The notes beneath the pieces are model-generated. The model did not search any database and was not told the origin of the DNA. It worked only from the letters and a program-made list of their open reading frames with translations. DNA of 64,000 bases from Armatimonadota bacterium. Lineage in GTDB: Bacteria; Armatimonadota; Fimbriimonadia; Fimbriimonadales; GBS-DC. Below are positions 2 through 32,760 of this stretch, in pieces. Numbering within the stretch: the stretch's first letter is position 1; each line of letters begins with the position of its first letter. The stretch covers positions 3,431 through 67,430 of the forward strand of contig JABWCR010000014.1 in NCBI GenBank assembly GCA_013359125.1. The letters run 5' to 3'. Position numbers and translations under genes: made by a program.

Positions 2-2752
2 GAAATCAATGCCCGAGGCATGCATCTAACCCCCGGGGTCATCGACTGCCATTCGCACACCGCCATCTCGGGCGGCGTCAACGAGGGCACCAACGTCGTT
101 ACGGCGGAAGTTCGCATTCGAGACGTGGTCAACCCGAACGATGTGAACATCTATCGCCAGTTGGCGGGCGGCGTTACCGCGGCGAACCTTTTGCACGGTT
201 CGGCCAACGTGATCGGCGGTCAGAACGCCACGATCAAAATGCGCTGGGGCAAGACGGCCGATGAGATCATGTTCAAAGAGGCACCCGAAGGCATCAAGTT
301 CGCCTTGGGCGAAAACGTCAAGCGGTCGAACTTTAACGAGATCATCTCGACCGGCCAGCAGCCGCGCTATCCCACAACGCGCATGGGCGTCGAGCAGACC
401 GTGCGCGAACGCTTCATGTCTGCGCTCGATTACAAGCGCCAGCAAGAGGAGTTCCGCGCGGGCCGGCGCGCATTCCCTCCCAAGAGGGATCTGCAGCTGG
501 ACGCTATTGTGGAGATATTGGACGGCAAGCGTTTGATCCATTGTCATAGCTACCGACAGGACGAAATCCTGATGCTGATCCGCGTTTGCGACGAGTTCGG
601 CGTCAAGATCAAGACTTTTCAGCATGTGTTGGAAGGTTACAAGGTGGCCGACGAGATGGCCGCTCATGGCGTCGGCGGCTCTACGTTCTCCGACTGGTGG
701 GCGTACAAGGTCGAGGCGTTCGATGCGATCCCGCATAACGGCGCCCTGATGACGGCGCGAGGGGTCAATGTCTCCTTTAACAGCGACAGTTCCGAACTGG
801 CGCGTCGTCTCAATCTGGATGCGGCGAAAGGCGTCAAGTATGGCGGCATGGACGAGCAGGAAGCACTGAAACTGGTAACGCTCAATCCGGCGATTCAGTT
901 GGGCGTCGATAAGTATGTCGGAACGGTCGAACCGGGCAAGCAGGCCGATTTGGCGCTTTGGACCGGGCATCCGCTCGATTCGATGACGCGGTGCGAGATG
1001 ACCTTTGTCGATGGCGTTCGCTACTTCGATCGCACGACCGATTTAGAGTTCCGCAAGAAGTTGGACGAAGAGCGCGAGACCTATTTGAAGCAATTGCGAC
1101 CGTCGCCCTATGGCCAGGCGGCTGCCGCTCAGCCCGAACAGCCAGGCGAATTGCGCTCATCCATTGCAGGGCAGTGGTCCGGCAAGTTGTCTGGAGCCGA
1201 GTTCCTGCCACCGGAAGGCGCGACGCTCAGCATGACGGTTACGGTAGGCGCGGACGGATCGATCACGGGCGTTTCCAAGACCGATATGGGCGATGCTCCG
1301 ATCACGGGCGGAACTTTTAATGCGGCTACGGGCGAGGTCAGCCTAAAGATCGCTGTGCCTGGTTTGTCCGAGGTTACTATGAACGGCCGCGTGCGCGGAC
1401 GAACCATGACCGGCACGATCGCCATCATGGGGCAGACCGTGAACGTCAACCTGACCAAGGACGACGAAGAGAATCAGATTCTTCATGCATCGCACGAAGC
1501 TGAGTTGAAGACCAAAGTCGAGATCAGCCCTCGCTATGATGCCAGCAAAACCAAGACCCTGAAGACGAAAGGTCGAATGCTGATAACAAACGCCGAAATC
1601 CACACCATGGCTGGGCCGGTCATCAAGAACGGCTCGATCCTGATCGAAGACGGCAAGATCGCGGCGATCAATCCTAACCGACCGAATGTCGAAACGGTCT
1701 ACGATGCAAAAGGCAAGCGAGTCTATCCGGGCATGATCGACGGCCTGACGACCCTTGGCATCACCGAAATAGGCTCAATCACTGCCACCAACGATACGTC
1801 GGAAACAGGGCAGTTCAACCCCAATGCGAGGGTCGAGATTGCGCTGAATCCCGATTCGACCGCTATCCCCGTTGCCCGGGCCAATGGGGTTACCACGGCC
1901 ATTGTCGCGCCGTCCGGAGGCATCATTTCCGGTCAAGGCTGTGTGGTCAATCTAGATGGCTGGACGTGGGAAGATCTCTGTTTGAAGGGGCCTATCGGCC
2001 AGTTCGTCAACTTTAACGGCCCTTCCAGCAGCATAACAGGCGCCACGGACAGTCGAAAGAGCGACTTTGAGAACTCGATCAAGCCGTTGGACGAGTTTAT
2101 CGAGAACGCTCGTCGCTATCTGAAGGCTAATGGCGCCAATCGGCCATTGGCGGAGCGCGATCCGAGATTTGAGGCGATGGCGCCTATTTTGGACGGGCGT
2201 TTGCCGCTGTTCTTAAGGCTCAACTCCCCTACCGCCGCTCGCGCCGCTGTACAGTGGGCCGAGAAGCAGAATGTTCGGATAGCCTTTGTCGGCGGCAGCG
2301 AACTTTGGCGGGTGGCCGATTTGCTCAAGGAGCACGATGTTCCGGTCATTCTCTCCAAGACCCATGCGTTGCCAGCGGGCGAGGATCGACCCTACGACGA
2401 GCCCTTTACTATCCCAGCCAAATTGCACCAAGCGGGCGTAGCGTTCTGCTTTAGCACGGGCGCCTCGTCCGATGTGCGGAATCTGCCCTATCAAGCGGCA
2501 ATGGCCGCTTCGTTCGGACTTCCGAAAGAGGTTGCTCTTAGGGCGCTGACCATCGATGCGGCCAAGATTTTCGGTCTCGAAGATCGAATCGGCTCTATCG
2601 AGGTTGGCAAGGATGCGAACCTGTTTATCTGCGACGGCGACCCGCTCGATATTCGCACTAACGTCGTCCAGACGATCATCGAAGGGCGCTTGTGCGACAT
2701 GTCTAACAAGCACACGCAGCTATACGACAAGTACCGATCTCGGCCAAAGTAG
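2..2752 (+). CDS. Amidohydrolase-superfamily protein, tandem two-domain form; 5' end cut by window edge
   Basis: The frame is open from nt 2 (EINARGMHLTPGVIDCHSH), so the ATG at 20 is internal. PGVIDCHSH is the HxH metal motif. Both halves end in the family C-terminal signature (GTVEPGKQADLALW and GSIEVGKDANLFICDGDPL). The second half has GMIDGLTTLG where HxH is expected. Confidence 0.85.
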   Translation, partial: EINARGMHLTPGVIDCHSHTAISGGVNEGTNVVTAEVRIRDVVNPNDVNIYRQLAGGVTAANLLHGSANVIGGQNATIKMRWGKTADEIMFKEAPEGIKFALGENVKRSNFNEIISTGQQPRYPTTRMGVEQTVRERFMSALDYKRQQEEFRAGRRAFPPKRDLQLDAIVEILDGKRLIHCHSYRQDEILMLIRVCDEFGVKIKTFQHVLEGYKVADEMAAHGVGGSTFSDWWAYKVEAFDAIPHNGALMTARGVNVSFNSDSSELARRLNLDAAKGVKYGGMDEQEALKLVTLNPAIQLGVDKYVGTVEPGKQADLALWTGHPLDSMTRCEMTFVDGVRYFDRTTDLEFRKKLDEERETYLKQLRPSPYGQAAAAQPEQPGELRSSIAGQWSGKLSGAEFLPPEGATLSMTVTVGADGSITGVSKTDMGDAPITGGTFNAATGEVSLKIAVPGLSEVTMNGRVRGRTMTGTIAIMGQTVNVNLTKDDEENQILHASHEAELKTKVEISPRYDASKTKTLKTKGRMLITNAEIHTMAGPVIKNGSILIEDGKIAAINPNRPNVETVYDAKGKRVYPGMIDGLTTLGITEIGSITATNDTSETGQFNPNARVEIALNPDSTAIPVARANGVTTAIVAPSGGIISGQGCVVNLDGWTWEDLCLKGPIGQFVNFNGPSSSITGATDSRKSDFENSIKPLDEFIENARRYLKANGANRPLAERDPRFEAMAPILDGRLPLFLRLNSPTAARAAVQWAEKQNVRIAFVGGSELWRVADLLKEHDVPVILSKTHALPAGEDRPYDEPFTIPAKLHQAGVAFCFSTGASSDVRNLPYQAAMAASFGLPKEVALRALTIDAAKIFGLEDRIGSIEVGKDANLFICDGDPLDIRTNVVQTIIEGRLCDMSNKHTQLYDKYRSRPK

Positions 2753-2774: not shown

Positions 2775-2925
2775 ACATCGCTTAACGACTCGCCCCAAAA
2801 AGGGCGAAGGACGTCGAGTTTTCGCACCCAGCGAAAAGCGGGGGACCCGGAAGTGGGGTGTAGTCCGCGAAGGCGGACCGAGTAATCTTGGCTCGAACCC
2901 GACAGCTAACCTCGTAGACAGAGCA
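2775..2925 (+). promoter_or_regulatory. c-di-AMP riboswitch (ydaO-yuaA class)
   Basis: The conserved blocks occur in order: AUCGCUUAA, GCGGGGGACCC, GGGGUGUAGUCC and GAACCCGACAGCUAACCUCGUAG. Local hairpins are CGCCCCaaaaaGGGCG and UCCGCgaagGCGGA. It lies in a 237-nt gap 5' of the operon starting at 2990. Confidence 0.75.
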
Positions 2926-2927
2926 AG

Positions 2928-2959
2928 AATCTGGCGGATGCTCACCAGATTTTCTCTTT
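2928..2959 (+). terminator. Possible riboswitch expression-platform hairpin/terminator
   Basis: AATCTGG (2928-2934) pairs with CCAGATT (2945-2951) across a 10-nt loop, followed by TTCTCTTT. The stem is short and AT-rich for this genome, so this is tentative. Confidence 0.35.
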
Positions 2960-2989
2960 GCGCACTGCTCGGCGGCCAAGGAGAACATC

Positions 2990-4468
2990 ATGTGCGGCAT
3001 TGCATGCGCCATACGAAGTTCCGATCCGGCCGAAGTTGCACGAATGTCGGAGAAAATCGCCCATCGCGGCCCTGACGGCGTCGGCCTGCTGGCCGACGCG
3101 GACAATGCCTTGGCTCATCGCCGTCTGGCCATTCTCGATCCCAAAGGAGGCGTGCAACCTTGGGCCACGCCAAGCGGTGGCGTGTTGATCTACAACGGCG
3201 AGATTTACAACCACCTAGGCCTTCGGTCGCAGATGCCTGACCGAACCTTTCAAACCCGGTGCGACACGGAAACCCTGGCCGCAGCGCTCGAGAATTGGGG
3301 CGCAGACGCCGTCGAGAAACTGGACGGTATGTTCGCATTTGTCTATGTCGACGGAGAGCGATACATCGCGGCCAGAGACCCGGTCGGCATCAAACCTCTG
3401 TTTCGAGCGGACCGCAACGGCGCGACCATCTTTGCGAGCGAGTTCAAAGCTTTTGACGATCAATGCACGAACATTGAGGACGTCCCTGCGGGCACCGTCA
3501 TCGATTCTGAAACGGGCGCCAAGCAGTTTTACTTTGTACCGAAGCCCGAGCCGCGCGCGATGTCGATGGAGACAGCGGCGGATGCCGTGCGAAGCATTCT
3601 TTACCGTGCGGTCTCTAAGCGCATGCTTTCGGATGTGCCGGTCGGAGTCTTCTTAAGCGGCGGGCTCGACAGCGCTATTATCGCCGCAATTGCAGTTAGG
3701 CTGAATCCAGACACGATGGCCTTTTCGGTCGGTTTCCACGACAGCCAGGACGCAGGGGCAGCGCAGGAGGTTGCGGCAGCTCTCGGAATGCGCCACTGCC
3801 ACGTTAGCCTGAGCGCGGGCAAATTGGTCGAAATGCTGCCGAAAGTCATTTATCACCTCGAGTCGTTCGATGCGCCGCTCGTTCGCAGCGCCTTGGCCAA
3901 CTATGCCGTTTCCGAGATGGCGCGGGATCACATAAAAGTGGCCCTCACGGGCGAAGGCGCCGATGAACTCTTTGCCGGATACGACTATCTTAGAGAGTTT
4001 TCCGGCGTTGGGCTGGACGAGAAACTCCGGTCGCTGGTTCTGGAGCTTCAGAATACCAATCTGCAGCGAACCGATCGAATGACGATGGCTCACGGGATTG
4101 AGGGGCGCGTGCCGTTTCTCGACAAGGAGATGATTGCGCTCGCGTTCCAACTCCCGGTCGAGCTAAAGCTCTCTCCAGCAGGCGTCAGCAAGGCCGTTCT
4201 GCGCATGGCGTTTCGGGACATGCTGCCAAATTGGGCGGTCAATCGTCCTAAGCAGGAGTTTGGTCGCGGCACCGGTGTGGCCGAAGTGATGGCCAAACAT
4301 GCAGCGATAGCGATCACTGACGATGAGTTTGAGGCTAACAGATTCGTATCGAGCGGGCTACCGTTGCGCGACAAGGAAGAGCTGATTTACTACCGAGTCT
4401 GGCGGAGTTTCTTCCGGCCGGAACTGACCGCTCTGGTCGGTCGAAGCCGCAAAGAGGAGATTGAATGA
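2990..4468 (+). CDS. Asparagine synthase (glutamine-hydrolysing)-like amidotransferase
   Basis: N-terminal MCGI gives the Cys2 nucleophile of a class II GATase. YNGEIYN is present, as is the PP-loop FLSGGLDSAIIAA. An SD (AAGGAGAA) lies upstream. Confidence 0.9.
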   Translation: MCGIACAIRSSDPAEVARMSEKIAHRGPDGVGLLADADNALAHRRLAILDPKGGVQPWATPSGGVLIYNGEIYNHLGLRSQMPDRTFQTRCDTETLAAALENWGADAVEKLDGMFAFVYVDGERYIAARDPVGIKPLFRADRNGATIFASEFKAFDDQCTNIEDVPAGTVIDSETGAKQFYFVPKPEPRAMSMETAADAVRSILYRAVSKRMLSDVPVGVFLSGGLDSAIIAAIAVRLNPDTMAFSVGFHDSQDAGAAQEVAAALGMRHCHVSLSAGKLVEMLPKVIYHLESFDAPLVRSALANYAVSEMARDHIKVALTGEGADELFAGYDYLREFSGVGLDEKLRSLVLELQNTNLQRTDRMTMAHGIEGRVPFLDKEMIALAFQLPVELKLSPAGVSKAVLRMAFRDMLPNWAVNRPKQEFGRGTGVAEVMAKHAAIAITDDEFEANRFVSSGLPLRDKEELIYYRVWRSFFRPELTALVGRSRKEEIE

Positions 4469-5574
4469 GCGACAAACCGAGATTTGCTATCTTGGGGGCC
4501 GGAAACGGCGGCTTAGCCATGGCTGGCCACCTGGCCTTGATGGGCTTCCCCGTCTCGCTTTTCAATCGCAACGAGGCGAGGATCGCGCTCATCCGGCAAA
4601 CAATGGAGATTCAGGTGCTGGCCAATCGCGAATCGGACGATCTTCCGCACGGCAGGGCTTCCATGGACCGTGTAACGTCGAACATGGCCGAAGCGATTCA
4701 CGATGCCGAGATCATCATGGTCGTCGCTCCCGCGACGGCGCACAGATATATGGCCGAAGAGGCTGCTCCGCACTTGCGCGACGGCCAGATCGTTGTGCTC
4801 AATCCGGGGCGAACGGGCGGCGCGCTGGAGTTTCGCCATGTGATCAAGGAAAAAGGATGCACGGCTGACGTTGTCGTGTCGGAGGCTCAAACGTTGTTAT
4901 ACGCCAGCCGAGCGTCCAACCCCGGACAGGTCAACATCTTTAGTATCAAGAACAGCGTGCCGATAGCCGCAATACCGGCCTACCGAACGCCTGAGGTGGT
5001 CAAGAGGCTCTCGGTCGCCTACCCCCAGTTTGTACCCGGCGACAATGCGCTCAAGACCAGCCTGGACAACATCGGCGCGATCTTTCATCCGGCGGTAACT
5101 TTGCTGAACGCAGCGCGAATTGAGACCGGCCGCGGCGATTTTGAGTTCTATATCGAAGGCATCTCGCGAAGCGTGGCCAAGGCGCTGGAGGTGATCGATG
5201 TAGAGCGAGTGAACGTCGGAAAAACCCTTGGTTTCAACTGTATGAGCGCGCGGGATTGGCTCTATGTGGCCTATGGCGCTGCGGGCAAAACCCTCTTCGA
5301 CTCCATCCGCGCTAACGAAGGCTACTATGGCATCAAGGCGCCCACACTGCTCGATCATCGCTATTTGACCGAGGACGTGCCGATGAGCCTGGTGCCCATT
5401 GCATCGTTGGGACGACACATGGACTCGCCATGCCCCACTATCGAAGCCATGATCCACTTAGCCAACGTCATCTTGGGAGTCGATTTCTGGGAAACTGGAC
5501 GCACCGTCGAATCGATGGGGCTGTCTGGCCTAAACTTGCAACAGATTCGCCGCGTCATTCTTGACGGAGAGTGA
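4465..5574 (+). CDS. NAD(P)-dependent opine (octopine/nopaline) dehydrogenase-family protein
   Basis: Has the GAGNGG Rossmann motif (FAILGAGNGGLAMAGHL). Family-typical blocks are DNIGAIFHPAVTLLNAARIE and FYIEGIS. Its start overlaps the upstream stop as ATGA. Confidence 0.85.
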   Translation: MSDKPRFAILGAGNGGLAMAGHLALMGFPVSLFNRNEARIALIRQTMEIQVLANRESDDLPHGRASMDRVTSNMAEAIHDAEIIMVVAPATAHRYMAEEAAPHLRDGQIVVLNPGRTGGALEFRHVIKEKGCTADVVVSEAQTLLYASRASNPGQVNIFSIKNSVPIAAIPAYRTPEVVKRLSVAYPQFVPGDNALKTSLDNIGAIFHPAVTLLNAARIETGRGDFEFYIEGISRSVAKALEVIDVERVNVGKTLGFNCMSARDWLYVAYGAAGKTLFDSIRANEGYYGIKAPTLLDHRYLTEDVPMSLVPIASLGRHMDSPCPTIEAMIHLANVILGVDFWETGRTVESMGLSGLNLQQIRRVILDGE

Positions 5575-5575
5575 G

Positions 5576-7453
5576 ATGAAGCCCCTTTCAGGCCGCGAGG
5601 TTATTGGTTTGTGCCGCCCCTATGTCGATGCTCATACGCTTGGGGTCAGCGCGATCGAGCAGCTCCTTATCGAGTGCGGATACGAGACGGTCATTGCCGA
5701 TGCGGACCTATGCGAAGCGGTCGGAGCGCCGAACGAACCCATTAACGAGGTTAAGATCGAGAATTGGATCAAGACCAACGGAATCAGCCGCTTGGGATTC
5801 AGTTACCGCTTGGACCCTGTTGACGGCGCCCGAGCATTTGGACGACTGAAGGCTGCGCTTGAGCGACGAAACCTCTTTGAAGAGAACGGAGGGCCGATCA
5901 AGGGCCTCTATTTTGCGGGTCTGCCCGAAGCCTGTCGTCGAGTCGAGGCTGAACATCGCGACAGTGTGAGAACCTTTATCGGCGATGAATCCCCCGCAGA
6001 GACTTTAGAAAAGTTTGGCGTCCCCAGCGGCCGCATTCCGTCTGCCCTTGCCAACGAGGCAACGGAGGATGCGGCACGGCTGGCTTTTGGCCAACGGCTC
6101 GTGCGATCCGAAGCCCACCTTAAGATAAAGCCTGTCGACCGGTCCGGCGGACCGAACTTTGGAACAAGGCGAGAGCATCTGCGCGACCGCATCGACCACG
6201 GCATCCAAATGGGCTTCCCGCCTCTGATGCGCGCGCATGTCGGGCCTTATCTTCCCAATCGGGAGGAGGCAGTCAGGCTCTATATCGAGCAGGCAAGGCA
6301 ATTGGCCGAGACCGGCTTCTTGGACGTGCTCTCGATCGGCTCCAGCCAATTGAGCCAAAGCCATTTCGGTCAAGACTGGGGCGATCTTCCCAACGGTGGC
6401 GGCGTGCCTGTCAACTCGCCAGAAGAGTATCGCGCCATCTACGAGGCGGCTCGACCGATGCTTGTGCGCACCTATGCCGGTACGAGAAATGTCGACAAAC
6501 TGGCGCCTGTCTACGAGGAGACGATCAACATCGCCTGGCACGCGCTTTCGTTTTGGTGGTTTTCGACCATCGATGGTCGCGGTCCAAATCCGCCCTTGCT
6601 CAATCTTCAACAGCACATGGCGACGCTGGAGCACATTGCACGGACCGGCAAGCCTTTCGAACCCAACATCCCCCATCATTTTGCGTTTCGGGGCGCGGAC
6701 GATGTCTCTTATGTCGTCTCTGCCATCTTGGCCGCGCGAACGGCTAAGCGCTTGGGCGTGCGCTATTTTGTGCTACAGCACATGCTCAACACGCCTCGTA
6801 GCACATGGGGGTCTCAAGACATTGCCAAAGGTCGGGCCATGCTCGCGTTAGCCCGAGATTTGGAGGACGAGCGGTTTCGCGTATTCTATCAGCCGCGCGC
6901 GGGCCTCGATTTCTTCTCGCCCGGCCTTGACAAGGCCAAGGCGCAGTTGGCTTCTGTCAGCGTTCTGATGGACTTGGTCGAGCCGAACAAACCGCATTCG
7001 CCCGATGCAATCCATGTGGTCAGTTACACCGAGGCCAGCCATTTGGCCGCGCCGCACGAGGTGGACGAGAGCATCCAGATAACGAGGGCGGCGATCGAAG
7101 CGCGCAGAAGGGAGAGATTCCAAGAAGGCGGAGAGTTGGAGCGCGAGGCCCAAGAGCGAACGGAAAAATTGCTGGGGGATGCCCGCAAGCTTCTAGCGAC
7201 GATGGAAGAGGCGATTCCCGATCTCTACTCCGCGAAGGGTCTCTACGATGCTTTCTGGGCGGGGTTCATGCCCGTGCCTTATCTGTGGGAAGGGCGAGAC
7301 GAGTTTGCTCGTGCCGTCAACTGGAAGACGGCCTTGCGAAACGGTTCGGTGATCGTGATCGACGAAAGGGGCCAACCAATTGAAGCAGAGGATCGTGCAA
7401 AGGTCGCAACGGCGAACCTGATTGACAACTATGCCGGCCGCCGTGTAGAATAG
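5576..7453 (+). CDS. B12-binding-like domain (DxHxxG) fused to a large mutase-like C-terminal domain
   Basis: DAHTLG lies in an N-terminal Rossmann-like segment of about 130 aa. The C-terminal 480 aa or so shows only motif-level resemblance to glutamate mutase E-type barrels (from memory). I prefer the ATG at 5576 (GGAGAG SD) over the listed TTG at 5561. Confidence 0.75.
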   Translation: MKPLSGREVIGLCRPYVDAHTLGVSAIEQLLIECGYETVIADADLCEAVGAPNEPINEVKIENWIKTNGISRLGFSYRLDPVDGARAFGRLKAALERRNLFEENGGPIKGLYFAGLPEACRRVEAEHRDSVRTFIGDESPAETLEKFGVPSGRIPSALANEATEDAARLAFGQRLVRSEAHLKIKPVDRSGGPNFGTRREHLRDRIDHGIQMGFPPLMRAHVGPYLPNREEAVRLYIEQARQLAETGFLDVLSIGSSQLSQSHFGQDWGDLPNGGGVPVNSPEEYRAIYEAARPMLVRTYAGTRNVDKLAPVYEETINIAWHALSFWWFSTIDGRGPNPPLLNLQQHMATLEHIARTGKPFEPNIPHHFAFRGADDVSYVVSAILAARTAKRLGVRYFVLQHMLNTPRSTWGSQDIAKGRAMLALARDLEDERFRVFYQPRAGLDFFSPGLDKAKAQLASVSVLMDLVEPNKPHSPDAIHVVSYTEASHLAAPHEVDESIQITRAAIEARRRERFQEGGELEREAQERTEKLLGDARKLLATMEEAIPDLYSAKGLYDAFWAGFMPVPYLWEGRDEFARAVNWKTALRNGSVIVIDERGQPIEAEDRAKVATANLIDNYAGRRVE

Positions 7454-7460
7454 GGCCGAT

Positions 7461-8333
7461 ATGCAGCCATGGATGGTCTCTTTGCACGGAGGACACAGCG
7501 GCGACTATTGTGACCACGCCCAAGGGACCCTCCGAGAAATCATCGAAACGGCGATCCGCATGGGCTTCCACACTTATGGTCTCGCCGAGCATATGCCTCG
7601 CGTCGAGGATCGCTTCATTTACTCGGAAGAACGCTCGATGGGTTGGGATGTCGAACATCTCCACAGGATGTTCGACGCTTATGCCGTCGAGACCCGCGCA
7701 CTGGCCGAGGAGTACGCCGATCGGATCGTCATTCTGAGAGGGTTTGAGGCCGAAGTGATCCCCCAGGACCGCTATCCGGACCTAATCCGACAAACCCTCG
7801 ATCGCTATCAGTTTGACTTTTTTGTCGGCTCGGCGCACTACGTGCGCGAGATCATTATCGATGGGCCGGACGAGCAGTTTGCCCATGCGATCGAGGTATA
7901 CGACGGTCTGGAGAACATGGCTGTGGCGTACTATGAAACGGTGGCCGATCTGATCGAGGCCGTCTCTCCGCCCGTGATCGGCCATTTTGATCTGGTCAAA
8001 AAGCGCGCTCGGCCCCATGGTCCGGTCGACGGTCCTCGCGCAAGGGAAGCGGCCTATCATGCCCTGACGCTGGCCAAACAGCATGACTGCATTCTCGATC
8101 TAAACCTTGCGGGTTGGCGAAAAGGGCTGAACGAACCCTATCCGGCGCCTTGGATAGTCGAAATGGCGCGAGAATTAGGCATCGACTTTTGCTTTGGCGA
8201 CGACAGCCACGGCCCTCATCAAGTGGGCGAGAACATTGAAAAAGGCCGCCTCTATCTGCTCGAACACGGCGTCAAGCACATTCGCGCTCTCAAACCCGGC
8301 GGACAATCCGATGTGATCTCTCTGGAGGCTTAG
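7461..8333 (+). CDS. PHP-family histidinol-phosphatase-like phosphoesterase (HisJ/His2 type)
   Basis: PHP metal ligand blocks are present: HGGHSGDYCDH, GLAEHMPR, GSAHYV, GHFDL and GDDSHG. It lies 7 nt after the upstream stop. Confidence 0.8.
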   Translation: MQPWMVSLHGGHSGDYCDHAQGTLREIIETAIRMGFHTYGLAEHMPRVEDRFIYSEERSMGWDVEHLHRMFDAYAVETRALAEEYADRIVILRGFEAEVIPQDRYPDLIRQTLDRYQFDFFVGSAHYVREIIIDGPDEQFAHAIEVYDGLENMAVAYYETVADLIEAVSPPVIGHFDLVKKRARPHGPVDGPRAREAAYHALTLAKQHDCILDLNLAGWRKGLNEPYPAPWIVEMARELGIDFCFGDDSHGPHQVGENIEKGRLYLLEHGVKHIRALKPGGQSDVISLEA

Positions 8334-8335
8334 AC

Positions 8336-10840
8336 ATGATCTCTATCTTGCTTGCTTGCCTGATCGCCCAGCAGCCGATTCGTTCGGGCGACTCGCAACC
8401 GATCCATGATCCATGGAGACCCGTAACGCGGATCGACCGCACTGGTTTCAAACTCCAGTACTACACGTCGCAGCCGTGCGACTCTAGAGTTCAGGTTCGC
8501 CAAGGCGATCTGCCGATGACGACCTTTGGCAAAGGGCTTGAGAATGTTTGGGTCGGCGCGCTCACGTTCGCTCGACCGGGACAGCGAACCTTGCACGAGA
8601 TCGAGATAACAGGGCTGGAGCCGGGCAAGAAGTACTTTTATCGAATTCTTGATCCGGGCGCCGTGCCGACCGGCCAAGAAAAGCGCTGGGGCGCAAAGCC
8701 TCCGTGGCGGCGCGAGCAGAGCGTCATCACGCAGGCCTCCAGAGGCTACAAGAGCATCGTCCGCATTCCGGTCAAAGTGCTTCTGATGCCCAATGTCGTC
8801 AACCTGAAGAGCGTAACGTCGGACGCGATGCAACCGTTGCCCCTCAGCGAAGAGGAGCTTCGCATCGTCCGGCAAGAATACGCTTACACATCGCGATTTT
8901 TCTTCGTCAACAGCGGCATGAGGCTTTGGGTCGATTTTCAGATATTTGTCGATAATCGGTGGCAGCGATGGAGCGAGGAGCCAGAAGGAATCGAGGCCTT
9001 CTACAAAGGATGGCCCGCATGTCGAAGCTGGTCGGGCGAGGATTTTCGCGGACCGGGCGGCGGCGACTTCACCGTTGTGGATACGAGAAACCTCCAGGTC
9101 AAGAACGCTCAACCTGTTCAAGAAGAGACGCCCTATATGGGGCAGATCGAACAGGCCTTCCCTCGGCGATGGAACCCGACTCTAAAGAAGTGGGAGTTTT
9201 ACAACAGCGGCGGGGGCACGTTTGGAGCGGACGAATTTCCCCGAGGTGTTACCAGCCGCTCGCAGTACCTTGGCGGAGGCGACACCGCTTGGCTAGCCTG
9301 TCATGAGTTTCATCACCAACTGGAATCGCATGGCGCATTCAGTCTCAGCGATCGCGAGGATGAGCGCGTGGTTTTCAATCACTACGAACCAAGGCGCCGA
9401 GAACAGAGGCCCGATGGAACGTATGCCGAAGCGACCTGGGCGACCAGCGGCAAGCATGGCGAGCATTGGGACGGTATGGCTTTTTGGGATCGAACGCTGA
9501 CGGACGCGCAATGGTTGCGGATGTATATGTCCTATGCGGTGGTCGTCCGCGATGCCGACGAGGACGGCGTGCCGGACGACGATCCTCGCCTGCCGTTGGA
9601 TGAGAAGCGGTTTGGCAGCGACCCGAGGCGAGACAGGACGGACGGGCGCATGGGCGATTTGGACAAGACCATGCTGAGCCACTGGATACCTTCTTGCCTT
9701 CAGGCCAGTTGGACCAAGCCCCCTTTCCAAGGAGTAACTCCCAATCCTCGCAGCATCGACAGCGACGGGGACGGCCAGCCGGACGACATCGACCCGTTGC
9801 CGCTTTTTGCCTATTCCCCGTTCGTCTGGCCCAAGCGAGCGACCGTGGACGGCCAGGCCGACGAATGGCGGCATACCCCTGTTAGCGGACAGATGGACGA
9901 GGGCGGGGCCGCGCTGACCTTTAAGCATGGGCACGACGACGCGGCCTACTATGGAGTCTTCACTGTTTCGGGAGACTGGAAGCGCGTTTATGCAACTTTG
10001 GACGGCGAGGGCGAGGGCTTTTTCTCGACCAATCGCACCCTTGCGATCGAGTTTACAAACGGCGCTGACGTTGCGTTTCGTTCGATACATGGCAACAGCA
10101 AGGGCCTAAACTGGAAGGCGAGCAAATCGGGCAGTGAGACCGTCATCGAGTTCTCGATCCCCAACCGCGAGGAAGGGCCTTGGTTTTGGCGGCGCGGCGG
10201 TCGCGAGGTCGGCGTGAGCATCGACCTGTTCGACGAGAAGGGAACGGGCTATTCGGTCTACGAGCCGTATCGAGCGATCTACTTTAGGATGTTGGAGCCG
10301 CACGGACAGTTTCCTATGCCGAGCGGCGCTCCGAGCGAACTGGGGACGGACGCCAAGCGCTTTATGCCAGGGGATGCAGCCGTTGCGGTTACAGGTTCCG
10401 GCTGGCGGGTTGCGGACGGCGCATGGCGATGCGACACCCATCCCGAAACTCATCTCACGATCGAGGCGCCCGATGCGACCGAGTTCGATCTGTGGATCGA
10501 CATCGAGGCTAAGCAGGACGCGATTCTGGCAGCTTTCTTGCCCGGATCGCAGAATCCGACTGCCGGGACGGACTATGTGCTCTTTGTCGGCGGCTATGCC
10601 AACACCGTTACGCGGTTTCGGCTTTTTGGCAGAGAAGAGGGCGAGGCGGATCAGATGATGTCGCCTGGTCGCCATCGAGTTCAACTGAGCCGCCGGAACG
10701 GCACTATTTGGGGTCTGATGGACGGCAAGCCGATACTCTGGGCAAAAGACCCGAACCCGACGGCCAAGATCAATCGTCTGGCAATCATCGGAGGTTACGA
10801 CGGGAACCAAGTTGTTCGAGAAATTCGCGCCCGCTGGTAG
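8336..10840 (+). CDS. Large multidomain protein with an HExxH metallopeptidase-like motif
   Basis: Strong SD (GGAGG). Domain order as read: an FN3-like segment resembling the purple-acid-phosphatase N-domain (LHEIEITGLEPGKKYFYRI); HEFHH; two acidic Ca-binding-like motifs (DADEDGVPDDD and DSDGDGQPDDID); and C-terminal lectin-like regions. Confidence 0.8.
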   Translation: MISILLACLIAQQPIRSGDSQPIHDPWRPVTRIDRTGFKLQYYTSQPCDSRVQVRQGDLPMTTFGKGLENVWVGALTFARPGQRTLHEIEITGLEPGKKYFYRILDPGAVPTGQEKRWGAKPPWRREQSVITQASRGYKSIVRIPVKVLLMPNVVNLKSVTSDAMQPLPLSEEELRIVRQEYAYTSRFFFVNSGMRLWVDFQIFVDNRWQRWSEEPEGIEAFYKGWPACRSWSGEDFRGPGGGDFTVVDTRNLQVKNAQPVQEETPYMGQIEQAFPRRWNPTLKKWEFYNSGGGTFGADEFPRGVTSRSQYLGGGDTAWLACHEFHHQLESHGAFSLSDREDERVVFNHYEPRRREQRPDGTYAEATWATSGKHGEHWDGMAFWDRTLTDAQWLRMYMSYAVVVRDADEDGVPDDDPRLPLDEKRFGSDPRRDRTDGRMGDLDKTMLSHWIPSCLQASWTKPPFQGVTPNPRSIDSDGDGQPDDIDPLPLFAYSPFVWPKRATVDGQADEWRHTPVSGQMDEGGAALTFKHGHDDAAYYGVFTVSGDWKRVYATLDGEGEGFFSTNRTLAIEFTNGADVAFRSIHGNSKGLNWKASKSGSETVIEFSIPNREEGPWFWRRGGREVGVSIDLFDEKGTGYSVYEPYRAIYFRMLEPHGQFPMPSGAPSELGTDAKRFMPGDAAVAVTGSGWRVADGAWRCDTHPETHLTIEAPDATEFDLWIDIEAKQDAILAAFLPGSQNPTAGTDYVLFVGGYANTVTRFRLFGREEGEADQMMSPGRHRVQLSRRNGTIWGLMDGKPILWAKDPNPTAKINRLAIIGGYDGNQVVREIRARW

Positions 10841-31265: not shown

Positions 31266-32618
<1,353 letters not shown>

Positions 32619-32654: not shown

Positions 32655-32755
32655 CATGCGCGGGGATAGGCGGAGGTCGGCCGCTTTCCCTACGCCGGTA
32701 CTAACCGGATCAGGTTCGAGGGGTTCGTCTCAGCCTCTTGGCGCCCCCAGCGACG
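32655..32755 (-). promoter_or_regulatory. TPP (THI-box) riboswitch
   Basis: The minus strand reads GGGGCGCCAAGAGGCUGAGACGAACCC..GAACCUGAUCCGGUUAGUACCGGCGUAGGGAAAGCGG. A downstream CCUCC segment can pair with the thiC SD (AGGAGG). Confidence 0.85.
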
Positions 32756-32760
32756 CTCTT

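What the first reader, a model, noticed from the sequence alone, without database searches (positions are those of the whole stretch)
2990..8333. Tightly coupled four-gene operon that may encode an undescribed amino-acid-derived (osmolyte?) pathway
- **Gene set.** An AsnB-like Gln-dependent amidotransferase, an opine-dehydrogenase-family reductase, a fused B12-binding/mutase-like protein and a PHP phosphatase.
- **Coupling.** The junctions are an ATGA overlap (4465/4468), a 1-nt gap (or a 14-nt overlap if the TTG start is used) and a 7-nt gap. All four genes lie behind one riboswitch.
- **Inference.** c-di-AMP signalling is tied to K+/glutamate and compatible-solute homeostasis. AsnB homologs amidate carboxylates, as in NAGGN-type osmolytes and beta-lactam synthetases. 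Opine dehydrogenases reductively condense an amino acid with a keto acid. A glutamate-derived, amidated, opine-like solute is therefore a reasonable guess.
- **Novelty.** I know of no described pathway with this gene set.
Basis: inference. Interest (0 to 1): 0.75.

Follow-up and report, generated by a model that had tools for sequence, protein, structure and literature searches.

The report
Salt-regulated opine dehydrogenase and B12-mutase operon
Behind a c-di-AMP riboswitch lies a conserved but undescribed set of three enzymes (amidotransferase, opine dehydrogenase, vitamin-B12 mutase-like protein) that probably makes an unknown amino-acid-derived compound for coping with salt stress; the fourth gene, a phosphatase, is probably only a neighbour.

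Summary
**Observation: confirmed.**
- A c-di-AMP riboswitch (2802-2932) precedes four tightly packed genes: AsnB-like, opine dehydrogenase (ODH), a 625-aa protein with no Pfam match, and a PHP/HisJ phosphatase.

**Interpretation: partly supported.**
- The 625-aa protein is a fused B12-binding domain plus a glutamate-mutase-E-like barrel. Its family is large and uncharacterised (at least 2866 homologues, 325 GTDB species).
- ODH and the mutase form the conserved core. They are adjacent in 60 of 80 loci, across more than 10 phyla.
- An amide-forming partner joins the core in 32 of 60 evaluable loci. It is either AsnB-like or an ATP-grasp ligase.
- The PHP gene was found in 0 of 80 loci. Unrelated downstream genes in this genome are packed just as tightly.

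**Link to salt and osmotic stress: independent regulatory support.**
- c-di-AMP riboswitches precede the module in three lineages.
- Li+/Na+ (nhaA-I) riboswitches precede it in two lineages, plus one near-threshold case.
- NhaR-like regulators, MscS channels and PtsN-like fusions to ODH are also associated.

**Complication.** In other phyla the same ODH-mutase pair sits inside polysaccharide gene clusters.

**Status.** The product is unknown, and a glutamate-derived, amidated, opine-type solute is inference only. Full-text searches found no description of this gene set. I rate it a strong, testable lead.

The parts
2802..2932 (+). c-di-AMP riboswitch aptamer (ydaO/yuaA class)
   Evidence: Rfam RF00379, 62.7 bits against a gathering score of 38, E = 3.6e-12, model positions 1-134 of 134. 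The identical element is on sister contig L081.
2920..2959 (+). Terminator-like hairpin with a U-rich tail, a candidate expression platform
   Evidence: The minimum-free-energy fold of 2895-3010 pairs AGAAUCUGG (2926-2934) with CCAGAUUUU (2945-2953), followed by CUCUUU. The stem is weak (z-score of the whole stretch is only -0.45) and the simple terminator scan did not call it. Inference only.
2990..4468 (+). AsnB-type glutamine-dependent amidotransferase (492 aa)
   Evidence: Pfam Asn_synthase 3.8e-70 and GATase_7 1.9e-32. TIGR01536 scores 399 bits (cut-off 267); NF006949 scores 444.6 bits (cut-off 499). N-terminal MCGI (Cys nucleophile), HRRLAILD, NGEIYN and the PP-loop SGGLDS (3656-3673) are all present. 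AsnB-like genes are adjacent to the module in 20 of 80 loci.
4465..5574 (+). Opine dehydrogenase family reductase (369 aa)
   Evidence: Octopine_DH 1.8e-46. Full-length match to Arthrobacter N-(1-D-carboxyethyl)-L-norvaline dehydrogenase 1BG6, E = 1.9e-79, including the HP..TLLNAAR motif. A homologue is adjacent to the B12 gene, on the same strand, in 60 of 80 loci.
5576..7453 (+). Fused B12-binding domain plus GlmE-like TIM barrel (625 aa), a putative adenosylcobalamin-dependent mutase from an uncharacterised family
   Evidence: No Pfam, NCBIfam or PDB sequence hit for the protein itself. AF2 model: pLDDT 82, pTM 0.85. Best folds are glutamate mutase E 1CB7_B (E = 1.2e-10), ornithine 4,5-aminomutase and lysine 5,6-aminomutase. 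The N-terminal 150 aa modelled alone best matches B12-binding subunits (4R3U_C, TM 0.64/0.72). 17 of 20 homologues weakly hit PF02310. Distant relatives carry B12-binding plus Met_asp_mut_E, or fusions to GlmL. hhalign against the GlmE family: probability 85%, E = 6e-6.
5627..5644 (+). DAHTLG, the DxHxxG cobalamin lower-ligand motif
   Evidence: D18, H20 and G23 are invariant in 20 diverse homologues. Coordinates. hhalign places it on GlmS ADCHAVG, but that alignment is not significant on its own.
7422..7451 (+). Sigma-70-like promoter match just upstream of the PHP gene
   Evidence: TTGACA-18-TAGAAT, 11 of 12 positions matched. The region holds 2 such matches against 2.7 expected by chance, so this is a hint only.
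7461..8333 (+). PHP-domain, HisJ-family phosphatase (290 aa). Adjacent to the module but probably not part of it.
   Evidence: PHP 9.2e-15; TIGR01856 hisJ_fam scores 197 bits (cut-off 90). No homologue in any of 80 related loci, even at tblastn E < 0.01. Present only on the near-identical sister contig.

Best explanation
The c-di-AMP riboswitch controls a biosynthetic module whose conserved core is an opine dehydrogenase and a single-chain, glutamate-mutase-like, B12-dependent isomerase. In this genome a glutamine-dependent AsnB-type amidotransferase joins them.

**Proposed mechanism (inferred).**
1. The mutase rearranges a common amino acid. Glutamate to 3-methylaspartate is the closest precedent.
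2. The ODH traps the thermodynamically disfavoured product by NAD(P)H-dependent reductive condensation with a 2-keto acid. This gives an N-(carboxyalkyl) imino acid.
3. AsnB adenylates one carboxylate and amidates it, using ammonia derived from glutamine.

**Proposed role.** The product is made when c-di-AMP is low, and in relatives when Na+/Li+ is high. That points to osmotic or ionic stress, with the product serving as a compatible solute or as an inert organic counter-ion for K+.

**Variants.** In other lineages the same acid building block is instead joined by ATP-grasp ligases to other amines, including amino sugars of surface polysaccharides.

**Excluded gene.** The PHP/HisJ-family phosphatase is most likely an unrelated neighbour.

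**Shown:** gene identities and folds, co-conservation, and riboswitch associations. **Inferred:** cobalamin use, order of steps, substrates, product and physiological role.
For: **Core pair.**
- An ODH lies within 3.5 kb on the same strand in 60 of 80 loci, and in 48 of 60 loci with enough flank. It is usually directly upstream, with gaps of -17 to +30 nt.
- From the ODH side, 2 of 3 sampled homologues are followed by the 623-629 aa gene.
- The loci span Armatimonadota, Planctomycetota, Verrucomicrobiota, Bacteroidota, Firmicutes, Acidobacteriota, Cyanobacteria, Proteobacteria and others.

**Amide-forming partner.**
- AsnB-like in 20 loci and ATP-grasp in 16. One or the other is present in 32 of 60 evaluable loci, always together with ODH.

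**Mutase identity.**

**Regulation.**
- c-di-AMP riboswitch before ODH-B12-AsnB in L042 (77.5 bits), and before ATP-grasp-ODH-B12 in L066 (53.6 bits).
- nhaA-I riboswitch before EIIA-ODH-AsnB-B12 in L022 and before B12-ODH-c6-AsnB in L050.
- A 34-bit nhaA-I-like match (gathering score 37) lies 42 nt before ODH-c6-B12-citrate synthase-MscS in L026.
- Published precedent: Na+ and c-di-AMP riboswitches jointly control the osmolyte genes ablA, eam and dapB (PMC9337991). Li+-I riboswitches associate with cation-transport and osmotic-stress genes (PMC9646797).
- MscS channels are adjacent. PTS_EIIA_2 is fused to ODH, and a LysR-family regulator lies divergently upstream; I read it as NhaR-like from its N-terminal sequence.

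**Order of steps.**
- The mutase stays 49-56% identical to the window protein in ATP-grasp-type loci. The ODH falls to 32-42% there, against 49-62% in AsnB-type loci.
- This fits a constant mutase substrate and a variable downstream step.

**Not a catabolic glutamate pathway.** No methylaspartase, GlmL, GlmE or GlmS homologue occurs in the window or in any locus.
Against: - No substrate or product is identified. Cobalamin binding is unproven, and the window protein itself does not reach any Pfam B12-binding hit.
- Among roughly 46 related loci scanned with Rfam, the riboswitch lies directly upstream in 2 (c-di-AMP), 2 (nhaA-I) and 1 near-threshold case. Most loci show no recognisable RNA element.
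- c-di-AMP riboswitches also control cell-wall genes.
- The module sits in polysaccharide clusters in other phyla, so an envelope role here is not excluded.
- The window AsnB passes the TIGR01536 equivalog cut-off and could simply make asparagine.
- 20 of 80 loci have the B12 gene without an ODH.
- Links to the TCA cycle (isocitrate dehydrogenase in L082 and L010, citrate synthase in L026) are sporadic.
Confidence: 0.55

Rival explanations
1. Envelope decoration rather than a soluble solute. The module makes an unusual acidic amino-acid substituent that is attached to a cell-surface polymer (polysaccharide or peptidoglycan). The riboswitch adjusts envelope chemistry under osmotic stress.
For: - In Bacteroidota, cyanobacterial and other loci, ATP-grasp-ODH-B12 lies inside clusters with DegT aminotransferase, GT2/GT4 glycosyltransferases, a Wzx flippase, dTDP-sugar enzymes and methyltransferases.
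- c-di-AMP riboswitches are known to regulate cell-wall remodelling genes (PMC9337991).
- Two PBP genes lie about 10 kb downstream on the same strand in this genome.
- From my own knowledge: AsnB homologues amidate peptidoglycan in Bacillus, Lactobacillus and Corynebacterium.
Against: - The window and all riboswitch-bearing loci (L042, L066, L022, L050, L026) have no glycosyltransferase, flippase or sugar-nucleotide gene next to the module.
- Their neighbours are MscS channels, a small membrane protein and ion-responsive regulators.
- The ODHs of glycan-type loci form a divergent subgroup, only 32-42% identical to the window ODH.
Confidence: 0.2
2. Catabolic module. The mutase and ODH degrade an amino acid or an opine-type compound, analogous to glutamate fermentation via methylaspartate or to opine oxidation.
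For: - Known relatives of the barrel (glutamate mutase, ornithine and lysine aminomutases) work in amino-acid fermentation.
- B12-only loci occur in amino-acid-fermenting Tissierellia and Clostridia, next to amino-acid ABC transporters and M20 peptidase-like genes.
- From my own knowledge: the Arthrobacter ODH homologue 1BG6 came from a strain enriched on a synthetic opine.
Against: - No methylaspartase or GlmL is present anywhere.
- The recurrent partners are ATP-consuming amide-forming enzymes (AsnB, ATP-grasp) and glycan-assembly genes, which indicate anabolism.
- No transporter or catabolic regulator lies in the window operon.
- Induction by low c-di-AMP or high Na+ fits synthesis better than breakdown.
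Confidence: 0.08
3. Coincidental neighbours with housekeeping roles. AsnB makes asparagine, the PHP protein is histidinol phosphatase, and ODH and the B12 protein are unrelated to them.
For: - The window AsnB exceeds the TIGR01536 asparagine synthase cut-off, and its counterparts in L003 and L022 exceed even NF006949.
- The PHP protein exceeds the HisJ-family cut-off.
- Genes in this stretch of the genome are tightly packed regardless of function.
Against: - AsnB-like genes sit directly beside ODH-B12 in 20 loci from several phyla, in varying order, with overlapping or near-abutting stop and start codons.
- In L042 exactly ODH-B12-AsnB lies behind the same riboswitch class.
- This rival is probably right for the PHP gene alone (0 of 80 loci).
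Confidence: 0.07
4. Opine-type metallophore synthesis, like staphylopine or pseudopaline, in which an ODH (CntM) performs the last step.
For: - The ODH family includes CntM-type enzymes (from my own knowledge).
- Rikenellaceae loci place a TonB-dependent receptor after the B12 gene.
Against: - No nicotianamine-synthase-like (CntL) gene, exporter or metal-responsive element lies near the module.
- The Rikenellaceae loci with the TonB receptor lack the ODH.
- The regulators found sense c-di-AMP and Li+/Na+, not transition metals.
Confidence: 0.04

Closest known systems
Glutamate mutase (methylaspartate mutase GlmS + GlmE, with reactivase GlmL), e.g. Clostridium cochlearium 1CB7 or E. coli O157 ECs_0762-0764
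   Same: - It is the best structural match of the 625-aa protein (Foldseek E = 1.2e-10).
- Both have a DxHxxG B12-binding Rossmann domain and a TIM barrel.
- Profile-profile alignment to the GlmE family gives probability 85%.
- Distant relatives of the window protein reach the Pfam Met_asp_mut_E cut-off, or are fused to GlmL.
   Different: - The window protein is a single chain with the B12 domain at the N-terminus, whereas glutamate mutase has two subunits.
- The window protein has no detectable sequence match to PF06368 or to any PDB chain.
- No GlmL or methylaspartase lies nearby.
- Its partner is an opine dehydrogenase rather than methylaspartase.
- The substrate-binding residues could not be mapped.
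N-(1-D-carboxyethyl)-L-norvaline dehydrogenase (CENDH, Arthrobacter sp. 1C, PDB 1BG6) and the opine dehydrogenase family PF02317
   Same: - The alignment is full length, E = 1.9e-79.
- Both have the GxGxxG NAD(P) site and the HP..TLLNAAR catalytic-region motif.
- Both carry the Octopine_DH domain.
   Different: - The natural role of CENDH is unknown, and it prefers hydrophobic amino acids plus pyruvate (my own knowledge).
- Here the enzyme is genetically locked to a B12 mutase.
- In Planctomycetota and Syntrophales it is fused to a PtsN-like EIIA domain.
- Its substrates are unknown.
[quoted passage not shown] 2022, PMC9337991)
   Same: - Both are amino-acid-rearranging enzymes placed behind Na+-type and/or c-di-AMP riboswitches.
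- The logic is the same: ON with a high alkali cation level, OFF with high c-di-AMP.
   Different: - Those are radical-SAM 2,3-aminomutases with known products.
- Here the enzyme is a B12/GlmE-like protein paired with an ODH and an amide synthetase, and the product is unknown.
- No tandem Na+/c-di-AMP arrangement was found.
NAGGN pathway (asnO-ngg): an AsnB-type amidotransferase plus a GNAT/ATP-grasp dipeptide synthase
   Same: - Both are osmolyte pathways whose last step is an AsnB-family amidation of a glutamate-derived carboxylate.
- In both, ATP-grasp and AsnB enzymes serve as the amide-forming steps.
   Different: - The window AsnB scores 245 bits against TIGR03104 (cut-off 570), so it is not AsnO.
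- No Ngg-type GNAT-ATP-grasp gene lies beside the module in the window or in the 80 loci; the only ligases seen are ATP-grasp genes without a GNAT domain. No direct Ngg search was run.
- The NAGGN pathway has no ODH or mutase.
Beta-lactam synthetase, carbapenam synthetase and lasso-peptide cyclases (AsnB homologues without the Cys nucleophile)
   Same: - 11 of the module's AsnB-like partners in other loci (L013, L016, L028, L034, L035, L037, L039, L043, L050, L060, L075) start MSGIAGI, MPGIAGI, MAAIAGI and similar.
- They lack about 60 residues of the glutaminase site.
- Like these enzymes, they cannot use glutamine.
- From my own knowledge: beta-lactam synthetase acts on an N-(carboxyethyl) amino acid.
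   Different: - The window's own AsnB keeps Cys1 and all glutamine-site motifs.
- The Cys-less forms score best against the AsnB synthetase domain (282-315 bits) and far below the lasso-cyclase or macrolactam models.
- Lactam formation is speculation.
Staphylopine/pseudopaline synthesis (CntKLM)
   Same: An opine dehydrogenase family member is used biosynthetically in a small operon.
   Different: - There is no CntL or CntK.
- The regulators and partners are different (see the metallophore rival).

Membership tests
c-di-AMP riboswitch (Rfam RF00379) | Covariance-model score at or above the gathering threshold over the full pseudo-symmetric aptamer | tested here: met
   62.7 bits against 38, model positions 1-134 of 134.
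c-di-AMP riboswitch (Rfam RF00379) | Binds c-di-AMP and switches expression of the downstream genes | not testable with these tools
   Only a weak terminator-like hairpin at 2920-2959 was seen.
Asparagine synthetase B (glutamine-hydrolysing) | N-terminal Cys nucleophile and glutamine-site motifs (R..L.I.D, NGEIYN, D.E) | tested here: met
   MCGI, HRRLAILD, NGEIYN and CDTET align with E. coli AsnB.
Asparagine synthetase B (glutamine-hydrolysing) | PP-loop SGGLDS and the synthetase domain | tested here: met
   SGGLDS at aa 223-228; Asn_synthase 3.8e-70.
Asparagine synthetase B (glutamine-hydrolysing) | Score above the curated equivalog cut-offs | tested here: inconclusive
   TIGR01536: 399 bits, above the 267 cut-off (met). 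NF006949: 444.6 bits, below the 499 cut-off (not met). The TT of E. coli 'VTTIR' is 'APLVR' here; that these threonines matter for beta-aspartyl-AMP formation is from my memory.
Asparagine synthetase B (glutamine-hydrolysing) | Substrate is aspartate | not testable with these tools
   Requires an enzyme assay or complementation.
Opine dehydrogenase family (PF02317 / CENDH-like) | N-terminal NAD(P) Rossmann domain plus C-terminal Octopine_DH helical domain, above the Pfam cut-off | tested here: met
   158.3 bits against a cut-off of 30; GAGNGG at aa 11-16.
Opine dehydrogenase family (PF02317 / CENDH-like) | Full-length similarity to a biochemically defined opine dehydrogenase, including the catalytic His region | tested here: met
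   1BG6, E = 1.9e-79, residues 4-364 aligned to 4-357. HPAVTLLNAAR aligns with HPLPTLLNAAR.
Opine dehydrogenase family (PF02317 / CENDH-like) | Reductive condensation of an amino acid with a 2-keto acid | not testable with these tools
   Requires an enzyme assay.
Adenosylcobalamin-dependent glutamate mutase (GlmS/GlmE) | B12-binding Rossmann domain with the DxHxxG motif | tested here: met
   DAHTLG is invariant. The N-terminal domain model best matches B12-binding subunits (4R3U_C, MttC, CarH-like). 17 of 20 homologues weakly hit PF02310, though the window protein itself does not.
Adenosylcobalamin-dependent glutamate mutase (GlmS/GlmE) | Sequence membership of Pfam Met_asp_mut_E (PF06368) | tested here: not met
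   No hit even at E <= 10 for the window protein or 19 homologues. Only distant relatives P0164 and P0213 hit it: P0164 scores 27.5 bits, above the 26.6 cut-off, and P0213 scores 25.1 bits, just below it.
Adenosylcobalamin-dependent glutamate mutase (GlmS/GlmE) | GlmE-type TIM-barrel fold | tested here: met
   Foldseek 1CB7_B, E = 1.2e-10, TM 0.49/0.61. hhalign probability 85% over residues 387-604.
Adenosylcobalamin-dependent glutamate mutase (GlmS/GlmE) | Arginine claw and Glu171 that bind glutamate | tested here: inconclusive
   The global hhalign alignment of the N-terminal half of the barrel has low confidence. The residue numbers are from my memory.
Adenosylcobalamin-dependent glutamate mutase (GlmS/GlmE) | Genomic association with GlmL and methylaspartase | tested here: not met
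   No tblastn hit at E < 1e-3 in the window or the 80 loci.
PLP/B12 aminomutases (OraSE, KamDE) | Conserved PLP-binding lysine in the Rossmann (B12) domain | tested here: not met
   No invariant lysine occurs in residues 1-215. The invariant lysines (K359, K391, K418, K455) all lie in the barrel. The expected position of the lysine is from my memory.
HisJ-family PHP histidinol phosphatase | PHP domain and a score above the TIGR01856 cut-off | tested here: met
   197 bits against 90.2. The equivalog NF005996 scores 115, below its 133 cut-off.
HisJ-family PHP histidinol phosphatase | Belongs to the same conserved gene set as genes 1-3 | tested here: not met
   0 of 80 loci.
NAGGN pathway (AsnO/Ngg) | AsnO equivalog score (TIGR03104) | tested here: not met
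   245 bits against a cut-off of 570.

The most novel reading that the evidence does not exclude
The 625-aa protein founds a new family of single-chain, adenosylcobalamin-dependent carbon-skeleton mutases. Together with its obligate opine dehydrogenase partner, it makes a previously unknown class of branched N-(carboxyalkyl) amino-acid metabolite.

- In many phyla this is a salt-induced compatible solute or K+ counter-ion, amidated by AsnB and controlled by c-di-AMP and Li+/Na+ riboswitches.
- In others it is a building block ligated onto surface glycans.
- The Cys-less AsnB partners might even cyclise it to a lactam.
Probability: 0.4. Interest if true: 0.85.

Novelty: new variant of a known kind. 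Interest (0 to 1): 0.72.

Why it matters
- **A new osmoadaptation pathway.** If confirmed, it would add a B12-dependent route to bacterial osmoadaptation. It would reveal a new organic solute, or K+ counter-ion, in poorly studied phyla such as Armatimonadota, Planctomycetota, the PVC group, Acidobacteriota and Syntrophales.
- **A function for an unannotated family.** It would assign a function to a large, highly conserved protein family with no Pfam model: at least 2866 homologues and 325 GTDB species, at 50-63% identity across phyla.
- **A role for bacterial opine dehydrogenases.** It would give a physiological role to the CENDH-like enzymes.
- **More riboswitch targets.** It would extend the gene sets controlled by c-di-AMP and by Li+/Na+ riboswitches.
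- **Glycan chemistry.** It would identify the origin of an unusual acyl substituent in surface glycans.
- **Directly testable.** Three genes and commercially available cofactors are enough to start.

Tried and rejected
**Searches that found nothing.**
- Four full-text literature searches on this gene set (riboswitch + asnB + ODH; ODH + cobalamin + mutase; ODH + compatible solute; glutamate mutase + osmolyte) found nothing relevant. The Nelson 2013 c-di-AMP riboswitch paper is not held.
- Direct sequence searches of the 625-aa protein against Pfam, NCBIfam and PDB found nothing useful, whether as a single sequence or as a 20-sequence profile.
- tblastn of the 625-aa protein against plasmids gave no match.
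- PHP and gene-5 homologues were sought in 80 loci down to E = 0.01, with none found.

**Alignments that failed.**
- Single-sequence hhalign and BLASTP against E. coli GlmE and GlmS were not significant.
- Only the enlarged superfamily-versus-GlmE-family profiles aligned. Even then the N-terminal half of the barrel, and so the substrate-binding residues, could not be mapped.

**Ideas rejected or found weak.**
- I looked for TCA-cycle or glutamate-supply genes as a recurrent neighbour. Isocitrate dehydrogenase turned up in only 2 loci and citrate synthase in 1, which is too sporadic to count.
- A PLP-dependent aminomutase is disfavoured, because no conserved lysine lies in the B12 domain.
- A radical-SAM/B12 enzyme is rejected by my reading of the sequence: it has no CxxxCxxC motif.
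- My greedy ORF caller failed on several high-GC loci (L006, L022, L038, L041, L051). For those I relied on tblastn and the ORF listing instead.

Full report
**1.

- Rfam places a full-length c-di-AMP riboswitch aptamer at 2802-2932 on the + strand. It scores 62.7 bits against a gathering score of 38, E = 3.6e-12.
- A 237-nt intergenic region separates the aptamer's gene from the upstream amidohydrolase gene. That gene is 1475 aa on the sister contig.
- A weak terminator-like hairpin with a U-rich tail follows the aptamer at 2920-2959.
- Four + strand ORFs follow: 2990-4468, 4465-5574, 5576-7453 and 7461-8333.
- Their junctions are as described: an ATGA overlap, a 1-nt gap and a 7-nt gap.
- For gene 3, the ATG at 5576 is the start supported by homologues and by the independent gene call on a 98%-identical contig.

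**2. What the four proteins are**

*Gene 1: an AsnB-type amidotransferase.*
- It has GATase_7 and Asn_synthase domains.
- The N-terminal Cys, the glutamine-site motifs and the SGGLDS PP-loop are all intact when aligned with E. coli AsnB.
- It passes the TIGR01536 cut-off but not NF006949.

*Gene 2: a bona fide opine-dehydrogenase-family enzyme.*
- It matches Arthrobacter N-(1-D-carboxyethyl)-L-norvaline dehydrogenase (1BG6) over its full length, E = 1.9e-79.

*Gene 3: a fused B12-binding domain and glutamate-mutase-like barrel.*
- It has no Pfam, NCBIfam or PDB sequence match.
- An AlphaFold model built on 20 homologues (pLDDT 82, pTM 0.85) is most similar to:
  - glutamate mutase subunit E (1CB7_B, E = 1.2e-10);
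  - ornithine 4,5-aminomutase and lysine 5,6-aminomutase;
  - then IcmF and methylmalonyl-CoA mutase.
- Its N-terminal 150 residues, modelled alone (pLDDT 88), best match B12-binding subunits. These are the 2-hydroxyisobutyryl-CoA mutase small subunit (TM 0.64/0.72), MttC and CarH-like domains.
- The motif DAHTLG (DxHxxG) is invariant in the family.
- 17 of 20 homologues weakly hit PF02310.
- An HMMER scan of 1.84 billion representative proteins found distant relatives. Some carry B12-binding plus Met_asp_mut_E. Others are fused to GlmL/MutL, to a glutathione-synthetase/RimK-type ATP-grasp domain, or to Peptidase_M15.
- A superfamily profile aligns to a GlmE family profile with 85% probability.
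- No lysine is conserved in the B12 domain, which argues against a PLP aminomutase.
- I therefore read gene 3 as a single-chain, GlmS+GlmE-like, probably adenosylcobalamin-dependent mutase from an uncharacterised family.

*Gene 4: a PHP-domain, HisJ-family phosphatase.*
- TIGR01856 scores 197 bits against a cut-off of 90.

**3. Which genes belong together**

- The mutase family is large: at least 2866 homologues, the top 120 of them 56-98% identical to the window protein.
- A scan of one genome per GTDB species found it in 325 species of many phyla. I examined the best 80 loci.
- Counts across those 80 loci:

| Feature near the mutase gene | Loci |
|---|---|
| ODH within 3.5 kb, same strand | 60 of 80 (48 of 60 with enough flank) |
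| AsnB-like gene beside the pair | 20 of 80 |
| ATP-grasp ligase beside the pair (L-amino-acid-ligase-like, PylC-like or Ddl-like) | 16 of 80 |
| AsnB-like or ATP-grasp, always with ODH | 32 of 60 evaluable |
| PHP gene | 0 of 80, even at E < 0.01 |
| Homologue of the 834-aa gene that starts 2 nt after PHP | 0 of 80 |

- The ODH is usually immediately upstream of the mutase gene, with overlapping or near-abutting codons.
- From the ODH side, two of three sampled homologues are followed by the 623-629 aa gene.
- On the sister contig the genes after PHP are an AhpC-like protein, an M24 peptidase and two PBPs. They are equally tightly packed.
- A promoter-like site lies just before PHP.
- **Conclusion.** The conserved unit is ODH + mutase, extended by an amide-forming enzyme. 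The fourth gene is most likely a bystander.

**4. Regulation points to ionic and osmotic stress**

*c-di-AMP riboswitches.* Besides the window, they lie:
- directly before ODH-mutase-AsnB in a Fimbriimonadia genome (L042, 77.5 bits);
- directly before ATP-grasp-ODH-mutase in a Clostridia MAG (L066, 53.6 bits, cut by the contig end).

*nhaA-I (Li+-I) riboswitches.* They lie:
- about 190 nt before EIIA-ODH-AsnB-mutase in a Phycisphaerae MAG (L022);
- 38 nt before mutase-ODH-c6-AsnB in Holophaga (L050, 41.1 bits against a gathering score of 37);
- as a full-length 34-bit match (gathering score 37), 42 nt before ODH-c6-mutase-citrate synthase-MscS in a Kiritimatiellia MAG (L026).

*Other associations.*
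- Further nhaA-I copies sit next to the module in three Planctomycetales loci. So do LysR-family regulators, which I read as NhaR-like from their N-terminal sequence.
- MscS channels follow the pair in five of the 80 loci and in L091.
- In eleven loci the ODH carries an N-terminal PtsN-like PTS_EIIA_2 domain.

*Published precedent.*
- Na+ and c-di-AMP riboswitches together control the osmolyte genes ablA, eam and dapB. Na+ turns them ON and c-di-AMP turns them OFF (PMC9337991).
- Li+-I riboswitches associate with cation-transport and osmotic-stress genes (PMC9646797).

*Limit.* Most of the roughly 46 related loci scanned with Rfam show no riboswitch. The link is recurrent and independent, but not universal.

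**5. A second context**

- In Bacteroidota, a cyanobacterium and other lineages, ATP-grasp-ODH-mutase lies within polysaccharide clusters. These carry DegT aminotransferase, GT2/GT4, Wzx, dTDP-sugar enzymes, an acetyltransferase and methyltransferases.
- Across contexts the mutase stays about equally similar to the window protein: 52-60% identical in AsnB-type loci and 49-56% in ATP-grasp-type loci.
- The ODH behaves differently. It falls from 49-62% identity in AsnB-type loci to 32-42% in ATP-grasp-type loci.
- This fits a constant mutase reaction on a common metabolite, with variable downstream chemistry.

**6. Most likely mechanism (inference)**

1. The mutase isomerises a primary amino acid. 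Glutamate to 3-methylaspartate is the nearest precedent. From established enzymology, that equilibrium favours glutamate.
2. The ODH pulls the reaction by irreversible reductive condensation with a keto acid. This would explain the obligate pairing.
3. AsnB (or an ATP-grasp ligase) then activates a carboxylate of the resulting imino acid. It forms an amide with ammonia from glutamine, or with another amine or an amino sugar.
4. Expression when c-di-AMP is low, or when Na+/Li+ is high, suggests a compatible solute or a metabolically inert anion that accompanies K+.

Nothing in the sequence identifies the substrate. The GlmE arginine claw could not be mapped.

One twist concerns the AsnB-like partners elsewhere. 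Eleven of them lack the Cys nucleophile and about 60 residues of the glutaminase site. They must use free ammonia or form a different amide, possibly a lactam. The window's own AsnB is fully glutamine-competent.

**7. Rivals**

- **Envelope decoration (0.2).** This is real in other phyla. It is less likely here because no glycan genes adjoin the riboswitch-bearing loci.
- **Catabolism (0.08).** It is disfavoured by the absence of methylaspartase and GlmL and by the ATP-consuming amide-forming partners.
- **Housekeeping coincidence (0.07).** It is refuted for genes 1-3 by their co-conservation, but is probably true for PHP.
- **Metallophore (0.04).** It lacks CntL, exporters and metal-responsive regulation.

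**8. Comparison with the known, and novelty**

- Each enzyme belongs to a known superfamily.
- The type of system, a riboswitch-controlled operon for an amino-acid-derived stress metabolite, is known from ablAB, eam, asnO-ngg and ect.
- The combination of ODH, a single-chain GlmE-like mutase and an amide synthetase is new. So is the mutase family itself. Neither was found in the literature I could search.
- The mutase has no curated family model.
- I class the finding as a new variant of a known kind, with a realistic chance (about 0.4) that it hides new B12 chemistry and a new class of solute.

**9. Limits**

- All functional statements beyond fold, motif, synteny and RNA-motif matches are inference.
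- Riboswitch ligand responses, cobalamin binding, co-transcription and the product all need experiments.
- My neighbourhood counts rest on tblastn and a simple ORF caller, applied to the best 80 of 325 loci.

Noticed in passing
window 8336-10840 (+): An 834-aa ORF starts 2 nt after the PHP stop. It has no Pfam or NCBIfam family, only a sub-threshold Pur_ac_phosph_N hit, and no homologue in the 80 related loci. On the sister contig L081 it is followed, equally tightly packed, by AhpC-like, M24 peptidase and two PBP genes.
   Followed up: partly
window 32669-32758 (-) and 31266-32609 (-): A TPP riboswitch (68.3 bits) lies directly before a gene that I read as thiC from its sequence. This is an ordinary arrangement.
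   Followed up: partly
L013 9856-11259, L016 9866-11212, L034 9861-11183, L050 7616-8953 and seven other loci: The AsnB-like partners of the module in these loci lack the N-terminal Cys (they start MSGIAGI, MPGIAGI or MAAIAGI) and about 60 residues of the glutaminase site. They fall below all NCBIfam cut-offs. They are ammonia-dependent or form a different amide, possibly a lactam.
   Followed up: partly
L013 6178-7848; also L006, L010, L014, L016, L022, L028, L034, L035, L039, L043: The opine dehydrogenases in these loci carry an N-terminal PTS_EIIA_2 (PtsN-like) domain of about 160 aa. This suggests control of the enzyme by the nitrogen-PTS phosphorylation state.
   Followed up: partly
L013 3535-3588 and 4378-4431 (+); L014 898-949 (-); L016 5017-5068 (-): nhaA-I (Li+/Na+) riboswitch copies precede small membrane-protein ORFs. 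They lie next to a LysR-family regulator gene (read as NhaR-like from its sequence) that is divergent from EIIA-ODH-mutase-AsnB. Together this looks like a small salt-response island.
   Followed up: partly
proteins P0181, P0232, P0199, P0164, P0205: Distant paralogues of the mutase are fused to other domains: GlmL/MutL reactivase-like domains (1226-1266 aa), a glutathione-synthetase/RimK-type ATP-grasp domain (863 aa), or Peptidase_M15. These are further uncharacterised B12 mutase architectures.
   Followed up: no
L040 2860-3099 and 3175-3404 (+): Two tandem T-box leaders lie immediately downstream of an ODH-less mutase gene and upstream of an amino-acid ABC transporter. The specifier codon was not read.
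   Followed up: no
L017, L018, L019, L023, L032 (Rikenellaceae): The mutase gene occurs without an ODH. It is preceded by three methyltransferase-like genes and followed by a TonB-dependent receptor. This is a third, unexplained context.
   Followed up: no
window 6890-6904 (aa 439-443 of the mutase): An invariant 'QPRAG' motif resembles the N-terminal 'QPRAG' of GlmE. It sits in a different barrel strand according to the profile alignment. Its significance is unknown.
   Followed up: no
L020, L021, L026, L050, L060, L075, L080 (cluster c6, about 228 aa): A multi-pass membrane protein with no Pfam match is inserted between or next to ODH and the mutase in PVC, Acidobacteriota and WOR-3 loci. 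An MscS channel is often nearby.
   Followed up: partly
L082 7235-8701 and 11919-12554; L001, L002: In Armatimonadota the pair is followed by a PF04199 'cyclase' (kynurenine-formamidase-like) gene. In L082 it is also preceded by isocitrate dehydrogenase.
   Followed up: partly
window 20-2752 (+), complete on L081 2750-7177: The upstream gene encodes a 1475-aa protein with three tandem amidohydrolase domains. The window holds only the last 910 aa.
   Followed up: no
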